Part shown: positions 17,501 to 28,592 of the stretch, one piece after another | How positions within the stretch are numbered: the first letter of the stretch is position 1 | How the letters are laid out: each line of letters opens with the position of its first letter | DNA from: Nitrospirota bacterium | Lineage (GTDB): Bacteria; Nitrospirota; Nitrospiria; Nitrospirales; Nitrospiraceae | Length of the DNA: 64,000 bases | NCBI GenBank assembly: GCA_963703955.1 | Contig: CAVPGK010000012.1 | Span: forward strand, 1-64,000 | Direction: 5' to 3' | Notes under the pieces: generated by a model | Told to the model about the DNA's origin: nothing | The model's input: only the letters and a program-made list of their open reading frames with translations | Databases searched by the model: none | Translations under genes and position numbers: made by a program

Positions 17501-17698
17501 TTAGCAGGAGCCGACCATGCCCGGGGGACACGTCGGACGCACCGGTCGTGGACCGACATCTTTTGGAAGCCGGTCTTCCTCCTCTGTGGAGGCACCCACT
17601 TCTCCGGGGACTTGCGTCATTGGCGATTCGCTCCGGTCGGAACGTGCGGCGCATCCGAGCAAGAGAAGGACAGCGCTAAGCGCAAGAGGCTTGATCAT
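17501..17698 (-). CDS. Small lipoprotein (65 aa)
   Basis: MIKPLALSAVLLLLGC lipobox; ends TCPPGMVGSC; directly downstream of the Spy-like gene. Confidence 0.6.
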   Translation of the reverse strand: MIKPLALSAVLLLLGCAARSDRSESPMTQVPGEVGASTEEEDRLPKDVGPRPVRPTCPPGMVGSC

Positions 17699-17709
17699 AC
17701 ACCGTAGCT

Positions 17710-18141
17710 CTATTCCTTTGTGGTAGTCCGCGCCGAGTCTTGAATGTGTCTCCATTTTTGAAGTTGGTCGGGGGAAAGAACTTTGTTGATGTTTCGTGTG
17801 GCGACGATGTCGGCATAGGTCATTGACGCCCGAAGACTCGCTTCCTGGTCCAACGCTTTCCTAATTTGCTCCAGATCAGCCTCTTTCTTGATCAGATCCT
17901 GCAATTCGATGCTGGCAATCGTGTGTTTGGCTTTTTCCAACTGAAGTTCTCGGTTGAGATCGACCAGAATTTGCTTGATCTGCCTTTCCTGCGCATCGGA
18001 TAGATTCAACTCAGTCTTGAAATCAAAGATCGTCTTGACGGTCTGTGGATTCGCCGTTTGAGAATAGGCAAGACTCCAAGCCAGAAGCCCCACCGCGACA
18101 ACGCTCGCCATTACCAGTCGTTTGCAGGTGTCTGGGTTCAT
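17710..18141 (-). CDS. Spy/CpxP-like periplasmic helical protein
   Basis: Signal peptide; two LTXXQ-like motifs (LNLSDAQ, VLSPDQ). Confidence 0.75.
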   Translation of the reverse strand: MNPDTCKRLVMASVVAVGLLAWSLAYSQTANPQTVKTIFDFKTELNLSDAQERQIKQILVDLNRELQLEKAKHTIASIELQDLIKKEADLEQIRKALDQEASLRASMTYADIVATRNINKVLSPDQLQKWRHIQDSARTTTKE

Positions 18142-18182
18142 ACCCTCATTGCTCCTCTTGGAAGGAACTTCTAACCGCGTTA

Positions 18183-21100
18183 TCATGGCACACGCAATAC
18201 GAAGTGTCCACGGCGATTTTGCTGGTAGCAGGCCTCATTGGACGCGTTGCAGATCGGCCGTTCTTTTCCATAGGACACTACCTTGACCTGCTTGGCATTC
18301 ACACCGAAGGTGACGAGAATATTCTTCACCGCCTTGGCTCTCTTCTCACCCAGCATCAGATTGTAGGCCACTGAGCCACGCTCGTCGCAGTGCCCTTCGA
18401 TGATCAGTCGTTTCTTGGGATTGGCCTTCAGCCATTCAGCAACTTTCATCAAGGCCTGGATCCCTTGATCGGATATCCGCCAACTTTCAAATCCGAACAG
18501 GACATCGTTCTTGAGGGCTGCCCCCTCCGGCGTGTCTAGTCCTTGCTCGATTTTCTCCGTCAAGGAGAGGTGACCATTCTCCGCATTACCTTGCGCCAAA
18601 ACGGTATCATGGATCCCAGAGTTGTCGCGTCCGCCCGAACCATTTTCCCGATGGCCGGCCTCGATCGACTTTCCCATGGCCACAGCGACCTGCTCCTCCT
18701 GTAGGCGATGCTCGGCCGCCCCATTTTCTCCGGCAACGGAGTCGCCGGGAACGACACCAGAGAGCGACGGGATAAGTGATGAAACTGCCACGCCTGACTC
18801 ACTCACGGTTCCATTCCCCGCTTCAACCTGTCTCCCAATGGTTCCGAAGCCATCGGCTTCTCCTGCCAACAAGGTCTCAGGTTCACTGTCCTCCACAACC
18901 AGCACGACCACTTGCGATTCCGTCGGCAAGTCCCTGATCGGCTCCAAGGTGGTGCTGTTCCGCATGAACGACCCCAAACTCAGCGACCCAATGGCTCCCC
19001 CGACCACAGACTGGGATGGTGGCGCATTTCCATTAAAGAGGATCAAGCCAGGAGGCGCATTCAACGCCTGCAAGGCGTTGCTTGGTGAAACGGTTCCATT
19101 AATGGTGACCGAAATACCATTGACTTGGTTGCTCGCGGCAACACTAAGGGTCCCGCCGTTGACATTGACCTCGATGGGATCAGGTCCAAGACCGACGACT
19201 CCTCCCAAGGCACTAAGGCTTGAGTTCGCTGAAGCCGTGACATTGTTGCTCGTGCCGTTGCCGTCCAAGATGGAGCCTGACGCTGCGGTCAGGTCTACTC
19301 CTCCGGAGGTGGCTGTGACGGTGTTGATCGTCATGTCACCGGTGGCGTTGTTGATCAGGACGTTCCCAGTTCCAGCCACGACATTACTAAGTGTAATGGG
19401 ACCCGCTTCGGTGACAAAAATCCCGCCCGCGGAGGTTGCAGCATTGAGCGTTCCAAGGTTCGTCTCGATGGGATCACCTGCAGTGCCAATGCTAGCGCCC
19501 GTTAGATTCGCGGTTGTGGCTGTGATGTTGTTGGCCGGCCCATTGGCATCCGTTATCGCCCCGTTTGCGGTCACGTTCAAGTTCCCCGATGGGGTTAGAG
19601 TCCCGAGGCCAAGCGCGTTGCTGTCCCGCAGGGTCACATTGTTCCCACTGGCGATCCCGACCGTGCTGAAATCATTCGCCGCATTGTTGAGGGTGATATC
19701 ATTGCCCGCCCCGGCGGCCAGGGTGGTCACCCCCGTCACGGTCAACGCGCCGCTCTGGGTGAGCGCGCCGTTGGTCGCGACGGTCAGGGTGCCGGCGACG
19801 GTCGCGGCCCCGAGATCCAGCGCGTTGGTATCGGTCAGCGCCACATTATTGCCAGTCGTCACGCCCACCGTGCTGAAATCATTAGCGGCATTATTCAAGA
19901 TGATGTCGTTCCCGGGGCCGGCGGCCAGGGTCATCGTGCCGACGACGCTCAAGGCGCCGCTCTGCGTCAACGCCCCATTGGTCGTCACACCTAACGCGCC
20001 GGAGACCGTCGAGGCCCCCAGGATCAGCGCGTTGGTGTCATTCAGCGTCACATTGTTGCCGCTGGTGATGCCGACCGTGCTGAAGTCATTGGCCGCATTA
20101 GTGAGGATAATGTTGTTCCCCACCCCCGCCGCCAGGGTGGTCGGACCCGCCGCCGTCACCGCCCCGCTCTGCGTGATCGGGCCGTTCGCCGTGATCGTCA
20201 GCGCCCCGGTCGAGGTCGCGCCCGGCATTGGCGCTCACGCTGCCAATCGTGACCGCGTTGGCCTGGTGCCAGGCAATGTCCCCGCCCGTAAAGGTGACGG
20301 TGTTGAAGCTATTACCCGGATTCGTCAGCGTGATGTTGCCGCGCGTGCCCGCCGTGCCCCCCAGATCCGTCGCCGTCAGCCCCTGGCCCGGATTGAGAGT
20401 GACTGGCGCGCTCTGCGTCAGATGATAGGTGTTGGTCACCGTGCCGGTGAAGGCTGGCGCCGCCGTGGTCACGCTCACCGTCCCCACGAAGCTGTTCCCC
20501 GCATTCGACAGCGTCACGGCGGCAGGTAGCAGCGGTGCCCCCGCAAAGGTCGCGTGCGTCCCGGTCAGATTGACCGTGACGTTGCCGGTCGCCGGTAAGG
20601 CCAGCGCGTTGAGGTTCGTATCCGCCGCCAGGACAAACGTCGACCCGGTCCCGCCATTGAAGGTCTGCGTCCCGCCGATCTGGGTCGGGCCCAGAAGATT
20701 AACGGTGCCGGCCGGTGTCAAGGTCGCATCGCCCACCACCGTGAGCGTCTGGCCGCCCGGCAGCGTGATATCCCCCGCCGTCGTGCTGACCGTCAGATTG
20801 CCCCCCACCGTCGAGGTCCCCAGCGTCAGCGCCCCGCCATTGGTCAGACTCACCGAGCCCAGGGCCGGCGCGGCCGTCGTGGTGAAGCTCGCATTGCCCG
20901 CCACGCTCACCGCCCCCGACTGGCTGATCAGCCCGCCGGTCGTCACCCCCAACGTCCCACTGATGGTCGACGCCCCCAGGTCCAGCGCAGTGGCATCAGT
21001 CAGCGCCACGTTGTTGCCGCTGGTCACGGCCACGGTCGAGAAATCATTACCCGCGTTGTTCAAGGCGATGTTGTTGCCCAGCGCCAGCGCCCAAGGTAGT

Positions 21101-24100
21101 CGTGCCGGCAACGGTCAACGGCGCCGCTCTGCGTGAGGGCGCCGGTGGTCGTGACCCCCAAGGTGCCGCTCACCGTGGACGCGCCCAGGTTCAGCGCAGT
21201 GGCATCCGTCAGGCTCACGTTGTTGCCGCTGGTGATCCCCACCGTGCTGAAGTTGTTGGCGGCGTTATTGAGGGTGATGTTGTTGGCCGCCCCCGCCGCC
21301 AGCGTGGTCACGCCGGTGACGGTCAGCGCGCCGCTCTGCGTCAACGCACCGGCGGTCGTCACCCCTAAGGTGCCACTCACCGTGGAGGCGCCCAGGATCC
21401 AGGGCAGTGGCATCCGTGAGCAGCACGTTATTGCCGCTGGTGATCCCGACCGTGCTGAAGTTATTGCCAGCATTATTCAGGGTAATGTTATTGGCTGCCC
21501 CGGCCGCCAGCGTGGTGGTGCCCGTCACGGTGAGCGCGCCGCTCTGCGTGAGCGGCCCCATTGGTCACACCCAAGGTGCCCGACACGGTCGAGGCGCCCA
21601 GGATCAGGGCGTTGGCGTCGGTCAGAGTTGACGTTGTTGCCGCGTCGTGACCGCAACCGTGCTGAAGTTATTCGCCGCATTGGTCAGGGTGATGTTGTTG
21701 GCCGCGCCCGCCGCCAGAGTGGTCGTCCCGGTGACGGTGAGCGCCCCGCTCTGGGTCAGCGCGCCGGTGGTCGTCACGTTCAGGGTGCCTGACACAGTCG
21801 AGGCGCCCAGGATCAACGCATTGGTGTCGTTCAGCGTGACATTGTTGCCGCTGGTGACCGACACCGCGCCGGTGAAGTTGTTGGCGTTGTCCAGGGTGAT
21901 ATTGTTCGCGCCTGCTGTCAGGGTCGTGGTGCCTGGGACGATCAGGTTCCCGCTGTCGGTGATTGCTCCGCCCGCGGTGATGTTCAAGTTTCCACCGGCG
22001 GTCAGGGTGAGGGCCGGCAATGCTACCGGTGCGTTGTCAAACGTCAGCGTCAGGTTGCGCAGGTTGGTGAGGCCGGCGAGGGCCGGCACCGTCGCCCCCG
22101 CGTTGAGGTTGCGCAACCCCACATCGCGAAGATTGGCCGGGACGCCGCCGAACGACACCGCGCCCGTGAAGTTGTTAGCCTGAGTGTCGAGGAGGATATC
22201 GGAATTGGCGACCGTGCTAGCGAGCGTGGTCGCGCCGGCCACGGTCAGCACGCCAGACTGGGTCAACGCCCCAGTGGTGGTGACCCCGAGGGTGCCGCTC
22301 ACGGTGGAGGCGCCCAGGATCAAGGCGTTCGCGTCGGTCAGCGCCACATTGTTGCCGCTCGTGATGCCGACGGTCGAGAAGTTATTGCCGGCATTATTCA
22401 AGGTAATGTTGTTGGCGGCCCCGGCGCGCGAGCGTGGTCATGCCGGTCACCGTCAGGGCGCCACTCTGGGTGAGCGCCCCGCCGGTGGTCACACCCAGGG
22501 TGCCCGAGACGGTGGAGGCGCCCAGGATCAGGGCGTTGGTGTCGGTCAACGCGACATTGTTCCCACTGGTGATGCCCACCGTGCTGAAGTTGTTGGCGTT
22601 GTCCAGGGTGATGTTGTTGGCGGCCCCCGCGGCCAGCGTGGTCGTCCCGGTGACGATCAGCGCGCCGCTGTCTGGTGATCGCCCCGTTGGTGGTGACGTT
22701 CAGGGTCCCCGCCACCGTCGAGGCGCCCAGGTTGATGGCATTGGTGTCCACCAGCGTCACGTTGTTGCCGCTGGTGACCGCACCGGGGTGAAATTGTTGG
22801 CGTTGTCCAGGGTGATGTTGTTGGCCGCGCCAGCGGCCAGGGTCGTGGTGCCGGGACGACCAGCTCCCGCTGTCGGTGATCGCCCCGCGCGGTGATGACC
22901 ACAGGTGCCACCGGCGGTCAGGGTGAGGGCCGGCAGGTCGATCGTGCGTTGTCAAACGTCAGCGTCAGGTTCGCAGTTGGTGGCCCGGAAGGACCGGCAC
23001 GGTTGGCGGCATTCACGTTGCGCAGTTGGACATCCCGGATGTTGGCTGGCCCGCCAAGACCGCGCCGAAGTTGTTGGCCTGGTGCCGAGGAGTACATCGG
23101 TGTTAGCGGCCGCTCTGCAGTGAAGTTGGGTCGTCCCAGTGACGGCGAGTGCACCAGTCTGTGGTTAGGCCCCGCCGGTCGTGACGGACAAGGTGCCAGC
23201 GGACGGTGGAGGCCGCCAGATCAGGGCATTGGCATCCGTCAGCGCCGACGGTGTTCGCCGCTGGCGATCGCCCACGGTGGTGAAGTTGTTGGCCGCATTG
23301 TTCAAGGTGATGTTGCTGGCGGCGCCGGCCGCGAGGGTGGTAGTGCCGGTGACGGTCAGGGCGCCGCTCTGAGTCAGGGCCCCGGCGGTGGTCACGCTCA
23401 ACGCGCCGGAGACGGTGGAGGCGCCCAAGATCGAGTGCATTGGTGTCGCGCCAGGATCACGTTGTTGCCGGTGGTGATCCCGACCGTGCGAAGTTGTTGG
23501 CGTTGTTCAGGGTGATGTTGTTGGCGGCCCCGGCCGCCAGGGTGGTGGTGCCGGTGACGGTCAGGGCGCCGCTCTGAGTCATCGCCCCGTTGGTGGTCAC
23601 GCCCAAGGTGCCGCTGATGGTGGAGGCGGCGAGATCGAGCGCATTCGTATCGTGAGCGCCACATTATTGCCGCTGGTGATGCCCACCGTGGTGAAGTCGT
23701 TCCCCGCATTGTTCAAGGTGATATTGTTGGCCGCCCCGGCCGCCAGGGTCGTTGCACCGGTCACCGTGAGCGGGGCCCCACTCTGGGTGAGGGCGCCGGC
23801 CGTGGTCACGTTGAACGTCCCGGAGACGGTCGAGACCCCCAGGTGAGCGCGTTCGCATCACGTAAATTGACGTTGTTGCCGCTGGTGATACCCACCGTGC
23901 TGAAGTTGTTCCCGGCATTATTCAAGGTGATGTTGTTGGCGGCCCCCGCGGCCAAGGTGGTCGTGCCGGTCACGGTGAGCGCGCCAGTCTGTGTCAAGGC
24001 ACCGTTCGTCGTCACCCCTAACGTGCCGGACACGGTGGAGGCCGCGAGGTTCAACGCAGTGGAATCTGTGAGCAGGACATTGCTGCCGCTGGTGATACCG

Positions 24101-26745
24101 ACGGTGCTGAAGGTGTTCCCGGCATTATTCAAGGTGATGTTGTTGGCGGCCCCGGCTGCGAGGGTCGTGGTCCCGGTGACGTTCAGTGCGCCGGACTGTG
24201 TGATCGCTCCCGCGCTCGTGACGCCCAAGGTGCCGCTGATCGTCGAGGCCCCCAGATCAATCGCGTTCGTATCTACCAACGTCACATTATTGCCGCTGGT
24301 GACCGAGACGGCGCCGGTAAAGTTATTGGCATTATTCAGCGTAATGTTGTTGACGGCGCCGGCAGCCAATGTCGTCGTGCCGGCCACGACCAGATTTCCG
24401 CTGTCAGTGATCGCACCGTTCGCCGTGACGTTCAGGTTGCCTGACACGGTAGAGACGGAAAAATTCAGTGCCGTGGAATCCTGCAATGTGACGTTGTTAC
24501 CGCTAGTGATCCCGACATTGCCCCCCAAGACGTTTCCGGGATTGTTGAGCGTAATGTCATTGGCAGCTCCGGACGTGAGGGTGGTGGCACCGGTCACCGA
24601 GAGGGCGCCGCTCTGCGTCAGGGCCCCGGCGGTCGTCACATTCAAGGTTCCGGAGATGGTCGAGGCCCCCAGGACCAGGGCATTGGTGTCGTTCAACGTG
24701 ACGTTGTTGCCGCTCGTGATCGAAACGGCGCCCGTGAAGTTGTTGGCGTTGTTCAACGTGATGTTGTTGGCGGCCAGGGTTGTGGCCCCCGTGACGCTCA
24801 AGGTGCCGCTATCAGTAATATTGCCACCGGTGGTCACATTCAAGTTCCCGCTGACGGTGGACGCCCCGAGAACCAAGGCGTTGGTATCACGTACGGTCAC
24901 ATTATTTCCGCTAGTGATGGCAACGGTGCCAAAGTTGTTCGCCGCGTTGTTCAGGGTAGCGTCATTGGCAGCTCCCGCGTTGATGGTTGTGGCTCCCGAA
25001 GAGGTCACAGTCCCAGTCAGATTGATGCTACCGGCGCCACCCGCGTTGGTGCCAAGCGTAAGATTGAGCGCGCCGGACCCAGAGCTGATGTTGCCAGCTC
25101 CAGTGATGCTACCGGCTCCTGCCGCCCTCCCCGCGCCTGCGCCCGCATCGTTCGCTGTGAGGGAAATAGCAGCGTTGGTCGTGCTGATATTTGCATTAAT
25201 ATTGATGTTGCGTCCGGCCTGCATCGTCAAGGTCCTGCCGTTATTGGTCTTGGCGATAGCATTAGTGACCGTAATGTCGTTGTTCGCTTGCAACGTAATA
25301 TTGGCATTTGCATTAAGAGTGGCAGGACTAATGGTGCAGCCGCCCACGACGCAATCGGGATCAGTGAATTGATCGACCTGACCTGTCGTTGCAGTGCCGC
25401 CCGTGGCGACCGTGATATTGGTTGGGTCGAGCAGCAGCGTGCCCATGGTTCCGTTTGCGGCCTGTGTGTCAACCTGACCTGAGAAGGCGAGATTGTCATG
25501 ACCCGATATTTCGATCTGGCCGCCGTTGCCACCGAGCGCACCACCTCTTGCCAGAATGGTGCCCCCGAACGTCGTATTCCTGTCCGACCAGATCACCACA
25601 TTTCCGGCGCCGGAATTGTTGCCTCCTGACGTATCGATCAGGCTGTCACTGGTTACCAATGTTTTGCCGGTTGACGTGATGAGGACCCGGCCGCCTTGGG
25701 CATCGGCTGCGCCTCTCGCAAGGATCATCCCGGCTACTCCTACCAGTTCCCCGGAGATCGTCACTTCCCCTTGTGCGGCTCCTCCTTCCGCTGCAGAGAC
25801 GTCCAACGTTCCGGTATTCAGCACCTTGCCTTCAGCGTTCTGTACCTTGCCCATATTGTTCTGCCAGCCGAGCGTACCTGTGTTGGCCACCGGATCGGAG
25901 CCTTCCAGACGAATGACTCCGCCTCGGTTCACCAGGCTTCGCGCTTCGATCACACCTGACTGATTGATGACCGAGGAAAACACATCGGAGGCCGCCCTGG
26001 CCGACAACAGAACCTGACCGCCATCGGCCTGAATCGTTCCGCTATTGCTGACCGCCGATGAAAGTGGTTTTCCATCGGGCCCTTTCACCTGTTCAAGGAC
26101 TTTGCCGTCGATGGCATAGGTGATGAGACCATCGCCCATAAAATCCACCATCAACTTCTCTCCAGACCCGAGCGCCACCTTGCCGAGATTGGCAACAATC
26201 AACCCTTCATTGGAGACGGCCGGGGCAACCAGTAACACAAACCCGTTGTCTGAGACGTGAATCTGTCCTTTATTAATGACGTAGGACAGGGCTTTGGTCG
26301 GATCTTGGGCAAAGGAGAACTTGCCGGCCATGAAATCACTATCCTTGATGTTGAAGGTCGTGGCCAAAAGCCCGGCGGTGTTGACCACTGCGCTCGATCC
26401 GAACAGAATTCCGTTCGGGTTGATCAGGAACACCCGGCCGTTGGCGAGAAGTTGACCCATAATCGCGGATGGGTCACCCCCGACAACTCGATTCAGCGCA
26501 ATCGAACCGGCATTCGGTTGGACAAACTTCACCAATTCATCCGCACCGATGTTAAATCCTCTCCAATTGATAATGGCTTTATCGGTTGCCTGATTAATGT
26601 GGAGTGTCTGAGCTGTGGGTTGACTGATCGTCGCGCTGCCGCCCGCCACTTGCCCCTCATTGGGAAGAGCCCACGCGAATGGTCCAAAACACAAGTGAAG
26701 GTATGAGAACAGCACTACGTAGGTCAGCGCGTGGCGTGTACGCAT
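18183..26745 (-). CDS. Giant TpsA (filamentous haemagglutinin family) exoprotein, ~2,850 aa, with C-terminal Pal/OmpA-like domain; many frameshifts at 20.2-23.85 kb
   Basis: Signal peptide ending AWA-LP; TPS domain (INWRGFNI, ANGRVFLINPNGILFG); G/T/N/A-rich repeats in all fragments; the last ORF ends in [22 protein letters not shown]...SYGKERP...NRR. Confidence 0.88.
19560..25020 (-). repeat. Imperfect ~207-bp (69-aa) tandem repeats within tpsA, roughly 20 copies
   Basis: Unit NxFSTVGITSGNNVxLxDTNALxLGASTVSGTLxVTTxGALTQSGALxVTGTTTLAAGAANNITLNNAx; spacing is 207 bp between the 20081 and 19874 copies. Confidence 0.9.
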
Positions 26746-26746
26746 G

Positions 26747-28387
26747 TTAGAACCTTGCCGTGACCTGGATATAAAAAGTTGGAGAGCTGCCACCGCTGAT
26801 CGACCCACCTCTTGCCTTGGGCGGGTCTAATGGGAATCCCACGTCAAACCGAACGGCAGACTCGTAATATGGCAAGTTCACCCTTAGACCTGGACCTGCA
26901 CCGGTCAAGTACTGAGATCTTTGCTCCCCTATCTCCGGGCTCCGGACTCGAGCGCCGCCGTGATCGACAAATGCGACGAACTGCGCGTATTTCCAGACCG
27001 GCACGCGGAGCTCTGCGCTCACCGTATACCCATCGTCGCCGAGAAATTCGCCAAGCTGATACCCCCTGACGGAGTCGGCGCCGCCGAGAAGGAACTGTTC
27101 GATGATCGGTAAGGGCCCACCACTGATTTGGCCTGAACCCCTGAAGATCAGGAACACATCATCAACAAGATTCTGGATTCGACCGATCGACAGATCGGCT
27201 TTGGTAAATCGGTTATCGGCTCCCTGACGGGTGGCCATCGGATCGTCGTTGCTCATACCGCCCAGCAATTCACTCAAGCCTTGAAACCCGTACAGGGAAA
27301 GAAAGCTTCGACCGGTGAGGTCGGTCCGATCGTAATTCACTCCGAGCTTGATCATTCTGAGGTGATCCTCGCCCGTTACCTGCCCGAGCATGGAGAGCCG
27401 ATTGTCCTTGGACGCGAACCCCACTTCGGCTTGGAGATTTTGTAGGCGTGATCTTATGAAGGGATGCCCGACCGAAATGTCATACGTTCTGATTGTTCCG
27501 TTGATATTCAGCGCGGCGAGTTGCCCGCCGACATCGTATCGGCCGTCTGACCCGGAAAGAATCAGTTTGGTACCAAAACGGTTTAGAGGGATGGCATAGG
27601 AGCCGAGCACAAACGCGAGTCGGCTAGGATCTTCACCGATGATGCCGTTCACTTTGAGCAAGCTACCTTCGATCAGCGCATTTCCCACTTCAACACCTGC
27701 GCCAAAGCGGTTCCGCGAGATGGAGGGAATCCCGAAGTTGTTGTAATCAAGCGTGAGATGAATCGGACGTGTATCCTTGACCTTGGCAACAATGTCGGTG
27801 GTTCCAGGGGCCTGCCCCGGCTCAAGAGACGCCGCGACGTTCAAATTGGGATACTCGTTGAGGAGTAGGAGGGACTTTTCGAGAGACGTATGTCGGATCA
27901 CGCCATCTTTGAGGACCGGAGTGAACCTGCTTCTGATGAACCCGTCCGAGTAATGCCGGTTTCCTTCGACCTGTAACTCCCCGATTTTTCCCTCCAGGAT
28001 GGCAATTTCAACGAACCCGTCTCGAATTTCCTGTTCAGGCAAGTAGGCTTTTGCAACGGTGTAACCCTGGCTTCGATACTTCTGGGTGATCAGGTCGGCA
28101 ATTTTTTGTAATTCTGCCATTCCGACCGATTGCCCGATGTATGGCCTGACAATGGGTGACAGCTCTTGAATATCGATGACAGAATTTCCAGTTATCTTGA
28201 ACCCTTGAACTCTTATCTGATCGACGGTTTGTGTTTCTGTTTGAGAGGGGTCGTGTGACACGGTCGTCTCACTTTGAGCGTGAACCGGCGGCCACAACAG
28301 CAAGGCCAGTAGTGGTGAGATGAACCAAATGAACCGGCCTTTCTCGGTAGAACCTGCGAACCAAGCCTTTACCCTTTTTCCAACCAT
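26747..28387 (-). CDS. TpsB transporter (ShlB/FhaC/HecB family)
   Basis: POTRA signature (YRSQGYTVAKAYLPEQEI..G.VEIAILEG); GGADSVRGY loop motif; C-terminal ...ARF; stop lies immediately before the tpsA start. Confidence 0.92.
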   Translation of the reverse strand: MVGKRVKAWFAGSTEKGRFIWFISPLLALLLWPPVHAQSETTVSHDPSQTETQTVDQIRVQGFKITGNSVIDIQELSPIVRPYIGQSVGMAELQKIADLITQKYRSQGYTVAKAYLPEQEIRDGFVEIAILEGKIGELQVEGNRHYSDGFIRSRFTPVLKDGVIRHTSLEKSLLLLNEYPNLNVAASLEPGQAPGTTDIVAKVKDTRPIHLTLDYNNFGIPSISRNRFGAGVEVGNALIEGSLLKVNGIIGEDPSRLAFVLGSYAIPLNRFGTKLILSGSDGRYDVGGQLAALNINGTIRTYDISVGHPFIRSRLQNLQAEVGFASKDNRLSMLGQVTGEDHLRMIKLGVNYDRTDLTGRSFLSLYGFQGLSELLGGMSNDDPMATRQGADNRFTKADLSIGRIQNLVDDVFLIFRGSGQISGGPLPIIEQFLLGGADSVRGYQLGEFLGDDGYTVSAELRVPVWKYAQFVAFVDHGGARVRSPEIGEQRSQYLTGAGPGLRVNLPYYESAVRFDVGFPLDPPKARGGSISGGSSPTFYIQVTARF

Positions 28388-28592
28388 TGCGACCAAGACT
28401 GAGGCTCTTGGTCCGTCTCTCCAAAGCCCCACGCCAAACCCTTGCCAATAAAGGAACATCCGTTACGTAAAAGGTTATACGACATCCCAAGAGTGGTCCA
28501 ATTCTGGTCTCACTATTGAGAGAGCGGCACCCGATGGATCGGTCCAAGTCACGATTGAGCATTTACGAATCAAAACAGTAGGATAGGGATGC

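What the first reader, a model, noticed from the sequence alone, without database searches (positions are those of the whole stretch)
18183..26745. Giant two-partner-secreted adhesin with a fused C-terminal Pal/OmpA peptidoglycan-binding domain: candidate cell-wall-tethered TPS system
Seen in sequence: one uninterrupted ORF (18183..20228) carries the last haemagglutinin-like repeats, then a ~165-aa low-complexity acidic linker (~19020-18520), then a complete Pal-type domain (VLFGF..., [29 protein letters not shown], NRR). The linker has no lipobox or signal peptide, so this does not look like a separate pal gene. The gene starts with a signal peptide and TPS domain directly behind tpsB. Established: characterised TpsA proteins are retained by other means, namely the C-terminal disulfide plug of HMW1, the cysteine hook of CdrA (released by LapG) and the FhaB prodomain. 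Pal/OmpA_C domains bind peptidoglycan in the periplasm. Inference: the filament is exported through TpsB while the folded Pal domain stays periplasmic, blocks full translocation and anchors the adhesin to the cell wall. The linker would span the periplasm and could be a release site. I do not know of this architecture being characterised.
Basis: partly seen in the sequence, partly recalled or inferred. Interest (0 to 1): 0.85.

Follow-up and report, generated by a model that had tools for sequence, protein, structure and literature searches.

The report
Adhesin swaps anchor for wall-binding domain
In some nitrifying bacteria, a giant secreted surface filament has lost the small disulfide hook that normally holds such proteins in their export pore and ends instead in a cell-wall-binding domain, a swap that happened at least twice and suggests a new way of tethering these filaments.

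Summary
One open frame (18183-20234, minus strand) joins beta-helix repeats, a conserved cap, a 167-aa cysteine-free disordered linker and a Pal-type OmpA domain with both peptidoglycan-binding residues. The tpsA gene follows tpsB, but as assembled it has at least 14 frameshifts, all in the repeat zone and probably assembly errors.

The fusion is not an artefact. Intact TPS-to-OmpA proteins exist elsewhere (Ca. Nitrospira bockiana, 1724 aa; another of 2598 aa).

New here: in 37 of 42 family genomes with this TpsA cap, the protein ends in a short cysteine-pair tail, mostly CX5C, spaced and placed like the HxuA anchor. In 3 of 42 an OmpA domain occupies that slot. Pal-type and MotB-like domains were captured independently (one origin rejected, p-AU 3e-5).

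Best reading (0.65): a folded periplasmic plug that also binds the cell wall has replaced the disulfide anchor. Binding, retention and adhesion are untested. I found no TPS precedent in print; autotransporters of types Vc and Ve carry comparable wall-binding domains. New variant of a known kind.

The parts
26747..28459 (-). tpsB, Omp85-family transporter (POTRA_2 + ShlB/FhaC barrel), 570 aa, intact
   Evidence: stop codon one base before the tpsA ATG
18183..26745 (-). tpsA, whole gene, about 2850 codons; broken by frameshifts as assembled
26668..26745 (-). probable Sec signal peptide (26 aa), judged by eye, no predictor run
   Evidence: homologues begin their mature part at the same place
25876..26655 (-). 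TPS secretion domain PF05860, EtpA/HMW1/HxuA type
   Evidence: PDB hits only EtpA, HMW1 and HxuA, E 1.5e-55 to 5.6e-29
19503..25038 (-). DUF5649 (PF18886) repeat stalk, 25 profile matches; last repeats modelled as beta-helix
20220..23841 (-). zone holding at least 14 frame switches, probably assembly indels
   Evidence: contigs of other runs lack single bases at 20220-20224 and 21076-21117
19020..19319 (-). conserved 100-aa cap that ends the beta-helix; marker for the family survey
18519..19019 (-). 167-aa acidic, cysteine-free, predicted disordered linker
18186..18518 (-). Pal-type OmpA-C domain; D617 and R632 (numbering of the 683-aa frame) match the mDAP-binding pair; own CX6C cysteine pair near the end
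17710..18186 (-). small Spy/CpxP(LTXXQ)-like exported protein, probable start 18138; accessory gene of TPS loci

Best explanation
An HMW-subfamily two-partner secretion system of Nitrospiraceae whose C-terminal anchor has been replaced. Shown: tpsB-tpsA operon, TPS domain, beta-helix repeats, cap, disordered linker, intact Pal-type domain, and the swap pattern among relatives. Inferred: TpsA crosses the inner membrane by Sec and is threaded through TpsB; the beta-helix folds outside; the Pal domain folds in the periplasm, its native compartment, and cannot pass the barrel; the linker fills the pore and reaches the wall; the domain binds mDAP of peptidoglycan. The filament is thus locked in TpsB, as by the disulfide hook of HxuA, HMW1 or CdrA, and in addition tied to the cell wall, which would fix its position and pass pulling force to the wall. 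Adhesion is the assumed job of the filament (no catalytic or toxin domain found) and is untested.
For: Slot replacement: of 42 family genomes with the cap (42 of 371 searched), 37 end in a short tail with two or more Cys, 3 in an OmpA domain, 2 in neither. CX5C spacing in 47 of 62 Cys tails (genome and metagenome loci, not de-duplicated), at 29/23 or 26/20 residues from the end in the full-length examples checked. HxuA's anchor is Cys855/Cys861 of 884, i.e. CX5C at about the same distance (PMC4873976 passages). In the MotB-like fusions and P0037 the first 60 or so tail residues align with the Cys tails and diverge just where the Cys pair would be. Two independent captures: Pal-type and MotB-like domains split at support 100, and one clade of all 12 fused domains is rejected, p-AU 3.3e-5. 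All 12 keep the Asp and Arg, which in OmpA bind diaminopimelate (PMC6572160 passages). The domain is more conserved than the linker: 107/111 against 132/167 (P0031) and 88/111 against 51/167 (P0023). Intact full-length fusions: P0005 and P0165.
Against: No experiment. P0023 carries both a linker Cys pair and a Pal domain, so the two modules are not strictly exclusive. Among distant cap relatives 104 of 121 have at most one Cys in the tail (some are fragments), so a hook is not universal. The Pal-type domain brings its own CX6C near the C-terminus and the MotB-like fusions keep a Cys pair at the cap end, so a disulfide could still contribute. In the Veillonella trimeric autotransporter VtaG, SLH wall-binding mutants were not released more; only polar localisation was lost (10.64898/2026.01.22.700529 passages), though that protein has its own barrel anchor. 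The window's copy is frameshifted. tpsB adjacency of P0005 and P0165 could not be checked.
Confidence: 0.65

Rival explanations
1. Plug only: any folded periplasmic domain blocks TpsB; wall binding is incidental, or serves stability or positioning rather than tethering.
For: TpsB takes unfolded substrate and a small globular periplasmic domain suffices to retain some TpsA proteins (PMC5422565 passages). Other cap relatives end in unrelated folded domains: beta-propellers (P0068, P0106), PEGA (P0147). The VtaG result separates wall binding from retention.
Against: The same wall-binding fold was captured from two donors and is the commonest folded tail seen: 7 of 146 representatives. The binding Asp and Arg are kept in 12 of 12.
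Confidence: 0.2
2. Polymorphic-toxin reading: the C-terminal OmpA domain is a Tox-OmpA effector delivered to neighbours, with the small downstream gene as immunity protein.
For: Zhang et al. propose C-terminal OmpA domains of PVC-delivered proteins as peptidoglycan-binding toxins (PMC3482391 passages). The C-terminus is variable and a small exported gene follows directly.
Against: The TPS domain matches EtpA/HMW1/HxuA, with no FHA, HpmA or CdiA hit at E up to 1. Pfam finds only TPS, DUF5649 and OmpA in the full-length fusions. The same downstream protein follows Pal-type, MotB-like and two Cys-type tails and lies in TPS loci without any OmpA nearby in G327 and G379, unlike a cognate immunity gene. 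The usual tail is an anchor-like Cys pair, not a toxin.
Confidence: 0.06
3. The whole chain is exported and the OmpA domain works outside, binding wall fragments or other cells' peptidoglycan.
For: EtpA, the closest solved TPS domain, is a secreted bridging adhesin (PMC6555100 passages). Two of 42 genomes have tails with no Cys.
Against: The domain occupies the slot of a periplasmic anchor behind a long disordered linker, and OmpA-C domains fold in the periplasm (established knowledge).
Confidence: 0.06
4. Artefact: misassembly or a lost stop codon joined tpsA to a neighbouring pal gene.
For: The gene has at least 14 frame breaks; other TPS paralogues of this assembly are broken too. The linker weakly resembles the N-terminal linker of a free Pal (E 0.013-0.067), so the domain did come from a pal gene at some time.
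Against: The same in-frame fusion occurs in P0005, P0023, P0031, P0035 and P0037. A contig of another run spans 18174-19120 in one piece. No lipobox in 10 of 10 linkers, and the window's internal Met is not kept in P0031. Free pal genes with signal peptides lie elsewhere in the genome.
Confidence: 0.03

Closest known systems
HMW-subfamily TpsA proteins: HxuA and HMW1 (Haemophilus influenzae), EtpA (E. coli)
   Same: TPS domain type, beta-helix (model of last repeats and cap: HxuA Z 12.0, rmsd 3.2, 181 aligned; EtpA Z 11.6, rmsd 3.6, 196 aligned), adjacent tpsB. Most relatives carry a CX5C tail like HxuA's.
   Different: In the window the disulfide tail is absent; a 167-aa linker and a folded Pal domain take its place. 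DUF5649 repeats.
CdrA/CdrB of Pseudomonas aeruginosa
   Same: Large TPS filament held in its pore by a C-terminal periplasmic module (PMC13405001 and PMC7616799 passages).
   Different: CdrA uses a cysteine hook cut by LapG at TAAG; no TAAG in the linkers and no LapG family gene found in this genome.
Autotransporters with periplasmic wall-binding domains: type Vc with C-terminal OmpA (Streptobacillus) or SLH (Negativicutes), AtaA with helper TpgA, type Ve intimin/YeeJ with LysM
   Same: Surface adhesin coupled to a periplasmic peptidoglycan-binding domain, with more than one independent origin (10.64898/2026.01.22.700529 passages).
   Different: Those proteins are anchored by their own barrel. 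Here the passenger has no barrel, so the wall-binding domain is also the only obvious retention device.
Pal lipoprotein
   Same: Fold and sequence (PDB Pal hits E 1e-24, about 40% identity).
   Different: No lipoprotein signal or lipid anchor; fused behind about 2700 residues of passenger; not next to tolB.
Tox-OmpA of PVC-delivered proteins (Zhang et al. 2012)
   Same: OmpA domain at the extreme C-terminus of a secreted protein.
   Different: Different delivery system; no toxin-type TPS domain, pretoxin domain or cognate immunity gene here.

Membership tests
Two-partner secretion (type Vb) | Adjacent TpsB with POTRA and Omp85 barrel | tested here: met
Two-partner secretion (type Vb) | N-terminal TPS domain on the passenger | tested here: met
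   PF05860 E 1.4e-35, TIGR01901 above cut-off
Two-partner secretion (type Vb) | Sec signal peptide | tested here: inconclusive
   plausible by eye; no predictor available
Two-partner secretion (type Vb) | Beta-helical passenger | tested here: met
   model of the last repeats and cap, mean pLDDT 84.6, beta-helix matches; the rest of the stalk was not modelled
Two-partner secretion (type Vb) | Single ORF from TPS domain to C-terminus | tested here: inconclusive
   not met in this assembly; met in P0005 and P0165
Two-partner secretion (type Vb) | TpsB-dependent export | not testable with these tools
   needs experiment
HMW subfamily of TpsA | HMW1/HxuA/EtpA-type TPS domain | tested here: met
   5 of 5 PDB hits are EtpA, HMW1, HxuA
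HMW subfamily of TpsA | Short C-terminal disulfide anchor (definition from PMC4873976) | tested here: not met
   no Cys in the linker; only the Pal domain's own Cys remain. Met in 37 of 42 family genomes. It descends from the subfamily and probably works like it, but has lost the defining anchor.
Pal lipoprotein | OmpA-C fold with mDAP-binding Asp and Arg | tested here: met
Pal lipoprotein | Lipoprotein signal with lipobox Cys | tested here: not met
   TIGR02802 120.2 bits, under 125.35
Pal lipoprotein | Binds peptidoglycan and TolB | not testable with these tools
   no clear tolB found in the 82%-complete genome
CdiA/polymorphic toxin | FHA-type TPS domain and pretoxin/FHA-2 region | tested here: not met
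CdiA/polymorphic toxin | Cognate immunity gene that changes with the C-terminal domain | tested here: not met
   same gene follows different tails
CdrA-type LapG-released adhesin | TAAG site and LapG protease | tested here: inconclusive
   no TAAG in 10 of 10 linkers; PF06035 not found in an incomplete genome

The most novel reading that the evidence does not exclude
A distinct class of cell-wall-tethered two-partner systems: the filament runs from outside, through TpsB, to peptidoglycan, so that load is carried by the wall rather than the outer membrane. It arose by repeated capture of OmpA-C domains (twice by test, perhaps three times, since P0037 pairs a different cap clade with a different Pal), possibly also of an SLH-like domain (P0130, by eye only). 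The Pal-type version might be detached from the wall by TolB and so be repositioned or regulated; this last step has no support here beyond the domain's ancestry.
Probability: 0.4. Interest if true: 0.8.

Novelty: new variant of a known kind. Interest (0 to 1): 0.66.

Why it matters
How TpsA proteins stay on the cell, and which end remains in the periplasm, is settled for only a few pathogens. This family offers natural variants of one scaffold with a disulfide hook, a Pal-type domain, a MotB-like domain or no module. Swapping them separates steric plugging from wall tethering in a single experiment. A folded C-terminal domain with a known ligand is also a built-in reporter of topology. The system belongs to Nitrospiraceae, which include the nitrite and complete-ammonia oxidisers, and an intact Pal-type copy is annotated in a cultured organism, Ca. 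Nitrospira bockiana.

Tried and rejected
Literature: ten searches. None listed a TpsA with a C-terminal OmpA domain; one search returned 0 papers; two type V reviews and an adhesin review have 0 occurrences of 'OmpA'. The library lacks most subscription papers, and supplements were not read, so a mention in a supplementary domain table cannot be excluded.

Earlier scan findings: four look-ups, nothing returned.

Pal domain alone against long proteins: 2 hits among 45 candidates, neither a TpsA, and it missed P0005, so it says little about other phyla. ESM Atlas with P0005: TPS clusters at 0.80 or less, none with OmpA listed; small clusters are not searched. Phylum survey: 15 of 401 genomes, strong hits only in the family, two weak ones outside. 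TpsA proteins with other caps were not surveyed.

No RNA holder listed. Foldseek of the cap model: no match at E 0.001. SLH in P0130: no Pfam hit up to E 10. LapG and TolB_N not found in the own genome, TIGR02800 only under cut-off. First OmpA tree had three mis-cut rows and was redone. One clade of the six Pal-type domains is not rejected (p-AU 0.31), so a third origin is not shown. Cap tree left out rows with short caps, duplicates, L129, L131 and four fragment proteins, and is poorly resolved. Frame switches inside linker and Pal at low penalties were rejected, as the model was trained on repeats only. Promoter/terminator scan gave nothing usable. No complex prediction was run.
Full report
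1. Observation. The minus-strand frame 18183-20234 is open for 683 codons. Pfam finds four DUF5649 repeat stretches and an OmpA domain at residues 579-668; the best NCBIfam family is Pal, just under its cut-off. The linker is 167 aa, acidic and without Cys. AlphaFold2 on the last 505 residues gives a beta-rich N-part, a disordered middle (pLDDT under 50 for model residues 228-397) and a Pal fold. Upstream, tpsB ends one base before the tpsA start, and a TPS domain follows a probable signal peptide. As assembled, the gene is broken: at least 14 frame switches, all in 23841-20220. The first 1000 and last 683 codons are clean.

2. Are the breaks or the fusion artefacts? The breaks are probably assembly errors (inference). 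They are confined to the repeats, other TPS paralogues of this assembly are also broken, and contigs of other runs lack single bases at 20220-20224 and 21076-21117. A real pseudogene is not excluded. The fusion is real. Ca. Nitrospira bockiana has a 1724-aa protein with TPS and OmpA domains, 40% identical over 98% of window residues 300-683. That species has a closed hybrid assembly (PMC12342949 passages); I did not verify that the protein comes from that assembly. Four more cap-linker-Pal proteins came from the 50% representatives (P0023, P0031, P0035, P0037). A contig of run X5 spans 18174-19120 and one of X2 spans 18817-19256; the indel table was cut, so their frame could not be checked. 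Free pal genes with their own signal peptides lie elsewhere in the genome.

3. What the slot normally holds. A profile of the 100-aa cap matched 42 of 371 family genomes. Tails after the cap: 36 of 41 classified by script have two or more Cys, 2 none, 2 a MotB-like OmpA domain (G029, G094) and 1 the Pal domain (this genome); G036, read separately, has a Cys pair, giving 37 of 42. The spacing is CX5C in 47 of 62 Cys tails. HxuA is anchored by Cys855 and Cys861 of 884 residues, and the HMW subfamily is described as defined by this C-terminal disulfide (PMC4873976 passages; also PMC5422565 and PMC8151025 passages). The window's TPS domain hits only EtpA, HMW1 and HxuA in the PDB. In the MotB-like fusions and P0037 the tail aligns with the Cys tails for about 60 residues and departs where the Cys pair would be. 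The window's own linker does not align with that tail; it weakly resembles the N-terminal linker of a free Pal. So the OmpA domain stands in the anchor slot.

4. Repeated capture. A second full-length fusion, P0165 (2598 aa), has TPS, DUF5649 and a MotB-like OmpA domain ('MotB-like' is my label from the GHTDN motif, not a tool result). Fused Pal-type domains group with free Pal proteins, and fused MotB-like domains with two other OmpA proteins of this genome; one clade of all 12 is rejected (p-AU 3.3e-5), one clade of the six Pal-type is not (p 0.31). On the cap tree the MotB-like rows form one clade (96) and the Pal-type rows fall in three places, weakly resolved. All 12 keep the Asp and Arg; in the window they are 15 residues apart, like D271 and R286 of A. 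baumannii OmpA, which bind diaminopimelate (PMC6572160 passages). The domain is more conserved than the linker.

5. Results against. P0023 has both a linker Cys pair and a Pal domain. Of 146 representatives with a cap end, 110 have at most one Cys in the tail, 104 of them among the 121 distant ones; 29 have a Cys pair and 7 an OmpA domain. A review notes that closely spaced Cys make small loops that should not hinder translocation in type V proteins generally (PMC8151025), although HxuA's CX5C is reported to retain it. In Veillonella VtaG, wall-binding mutants lost polar localisation but were not released more. No LapG gene or TAAG site supports a release switch.

6. The downstream gene. 17710-18186 encodes a small exported protein resembling Spy/CpxP (Atlas 0.90, LTXXQ in 39-74% of members of the top clusters; Pfam LTXXQ E 0.027, under cut-off). 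It follows all six OmpA-fused loci for which DNA was held (G000, G029, G094, L103, L126, L127) and two Cys-type loci. Close orthologues (E under 1e-30) occur in 5 of 371 genomes; the two loci inspected in the other two genomes lie between tpsB and tpsA (G327) or behind a passenger-type repeat gene (G379). It looks like a TPS accessory, perhaps a chaperone, not an immunity protein. This, with the HMW-type TPS domain, argues against the Tox-OmpA reading (PMC3482391 passages).

7. Mechanism. Shown: architecture, recurrence, slot replacement, two donors, conserved binding residues. Inferred: export through TpsB, periplasmic folding of the OmpA domain, steric lock, binding to peptidoglycan, adhesive role. 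I put plug plus wall tether at 0.65, plug only at 0.2, toxin 0.06, fully exported 0.06, artefact 0.03.

8. Novelty. Ten literature searches gave no TpsA with a C-terminal OmpA domain. Papers were seen as search listings, and as keyword passages for PMC5422565, PMC3482391, PMC13405001, PMC7616799, 10.64898/2026.01.22.700529, PMC6572160, PMC6555100, PMC8151025, PMC12342949, PMC11898600, PMC4873976 and PMC7066135; none was read whole and no supplement was opened. The principle is known from types Vc and Ve, and C-terminal periplasmic retention is known for TPS. The combination, a barrel-less passenger held by a wall-binding domain in place of its disulfide hook, appears undescribed. It is rare (3 of 42 cap-bearing genomes) and so far seen only in this family and in unplaced fragments. 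Verdict: new variant of a known kind, interest 0.66.

Noticed in passing
window 17710-18186 (-); L157, L158: Spy/CpxP-like exported protein whose close orthologues (5 of 371 genomes) sit in TPS-type loci with different C-terminal modules; candidate dedicated TpsA chaperone.
   Followed up: partly
G000 C6:164612-192309, C10:294965-301737, C13:216877-220013, C16:155290-158537, C23:64532-67731: A second, unrelated TpsA family with about seven paralogues in this genome, several frameshifted; the intact ones end in a Cys-containing tail.
   Followed up: partly
P0130, C-terminal 250 residues: Full-length TPS + cap protein ending in what looks by eye like SLH repeats plus an Ig-like domain; Pfam gives no SLH hit. 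Possible third wall-binding module in the same slot.
   Followed up: partly
P0068, P0106, P0147, P0086: Cap-bearing proteins ending in other folded domains: beta-propellers, PEGA, and a receiver-like region (the last by eye).
   Followed up: no
P0007, about residues 830-935: RHS-repeat protein with a Pal domain inserted in the middle of the RHS core, 60% identical to the window's domain.
   Followed up: no
L050 (G029 C147), linker of the MotB-like fusion: Linker length varies by internal repeats of about 40 aa among MotB-like fusions (105-182 aa).
   Followed up: no
G000 C9:27696-29939 and C23:95355-96890: Long coiled-coil proteins with C-terminal MotB-like OmpA domains; C9 groups with the donor clade of the MotB-like fusions.
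   Followed up: partly
window 17501-17707 (-): Short ORF after the Spy-like gene with a lipoprotein-like signal (LLGC), possibly the last gene of the operon.
   Followed up: no
G000 C12:162172-162990 and C26:9516-10370: Two free pal-like genes, neither with an obvious tolB neighbour; no clear tolB found in the assembly.
   Followed up: partly
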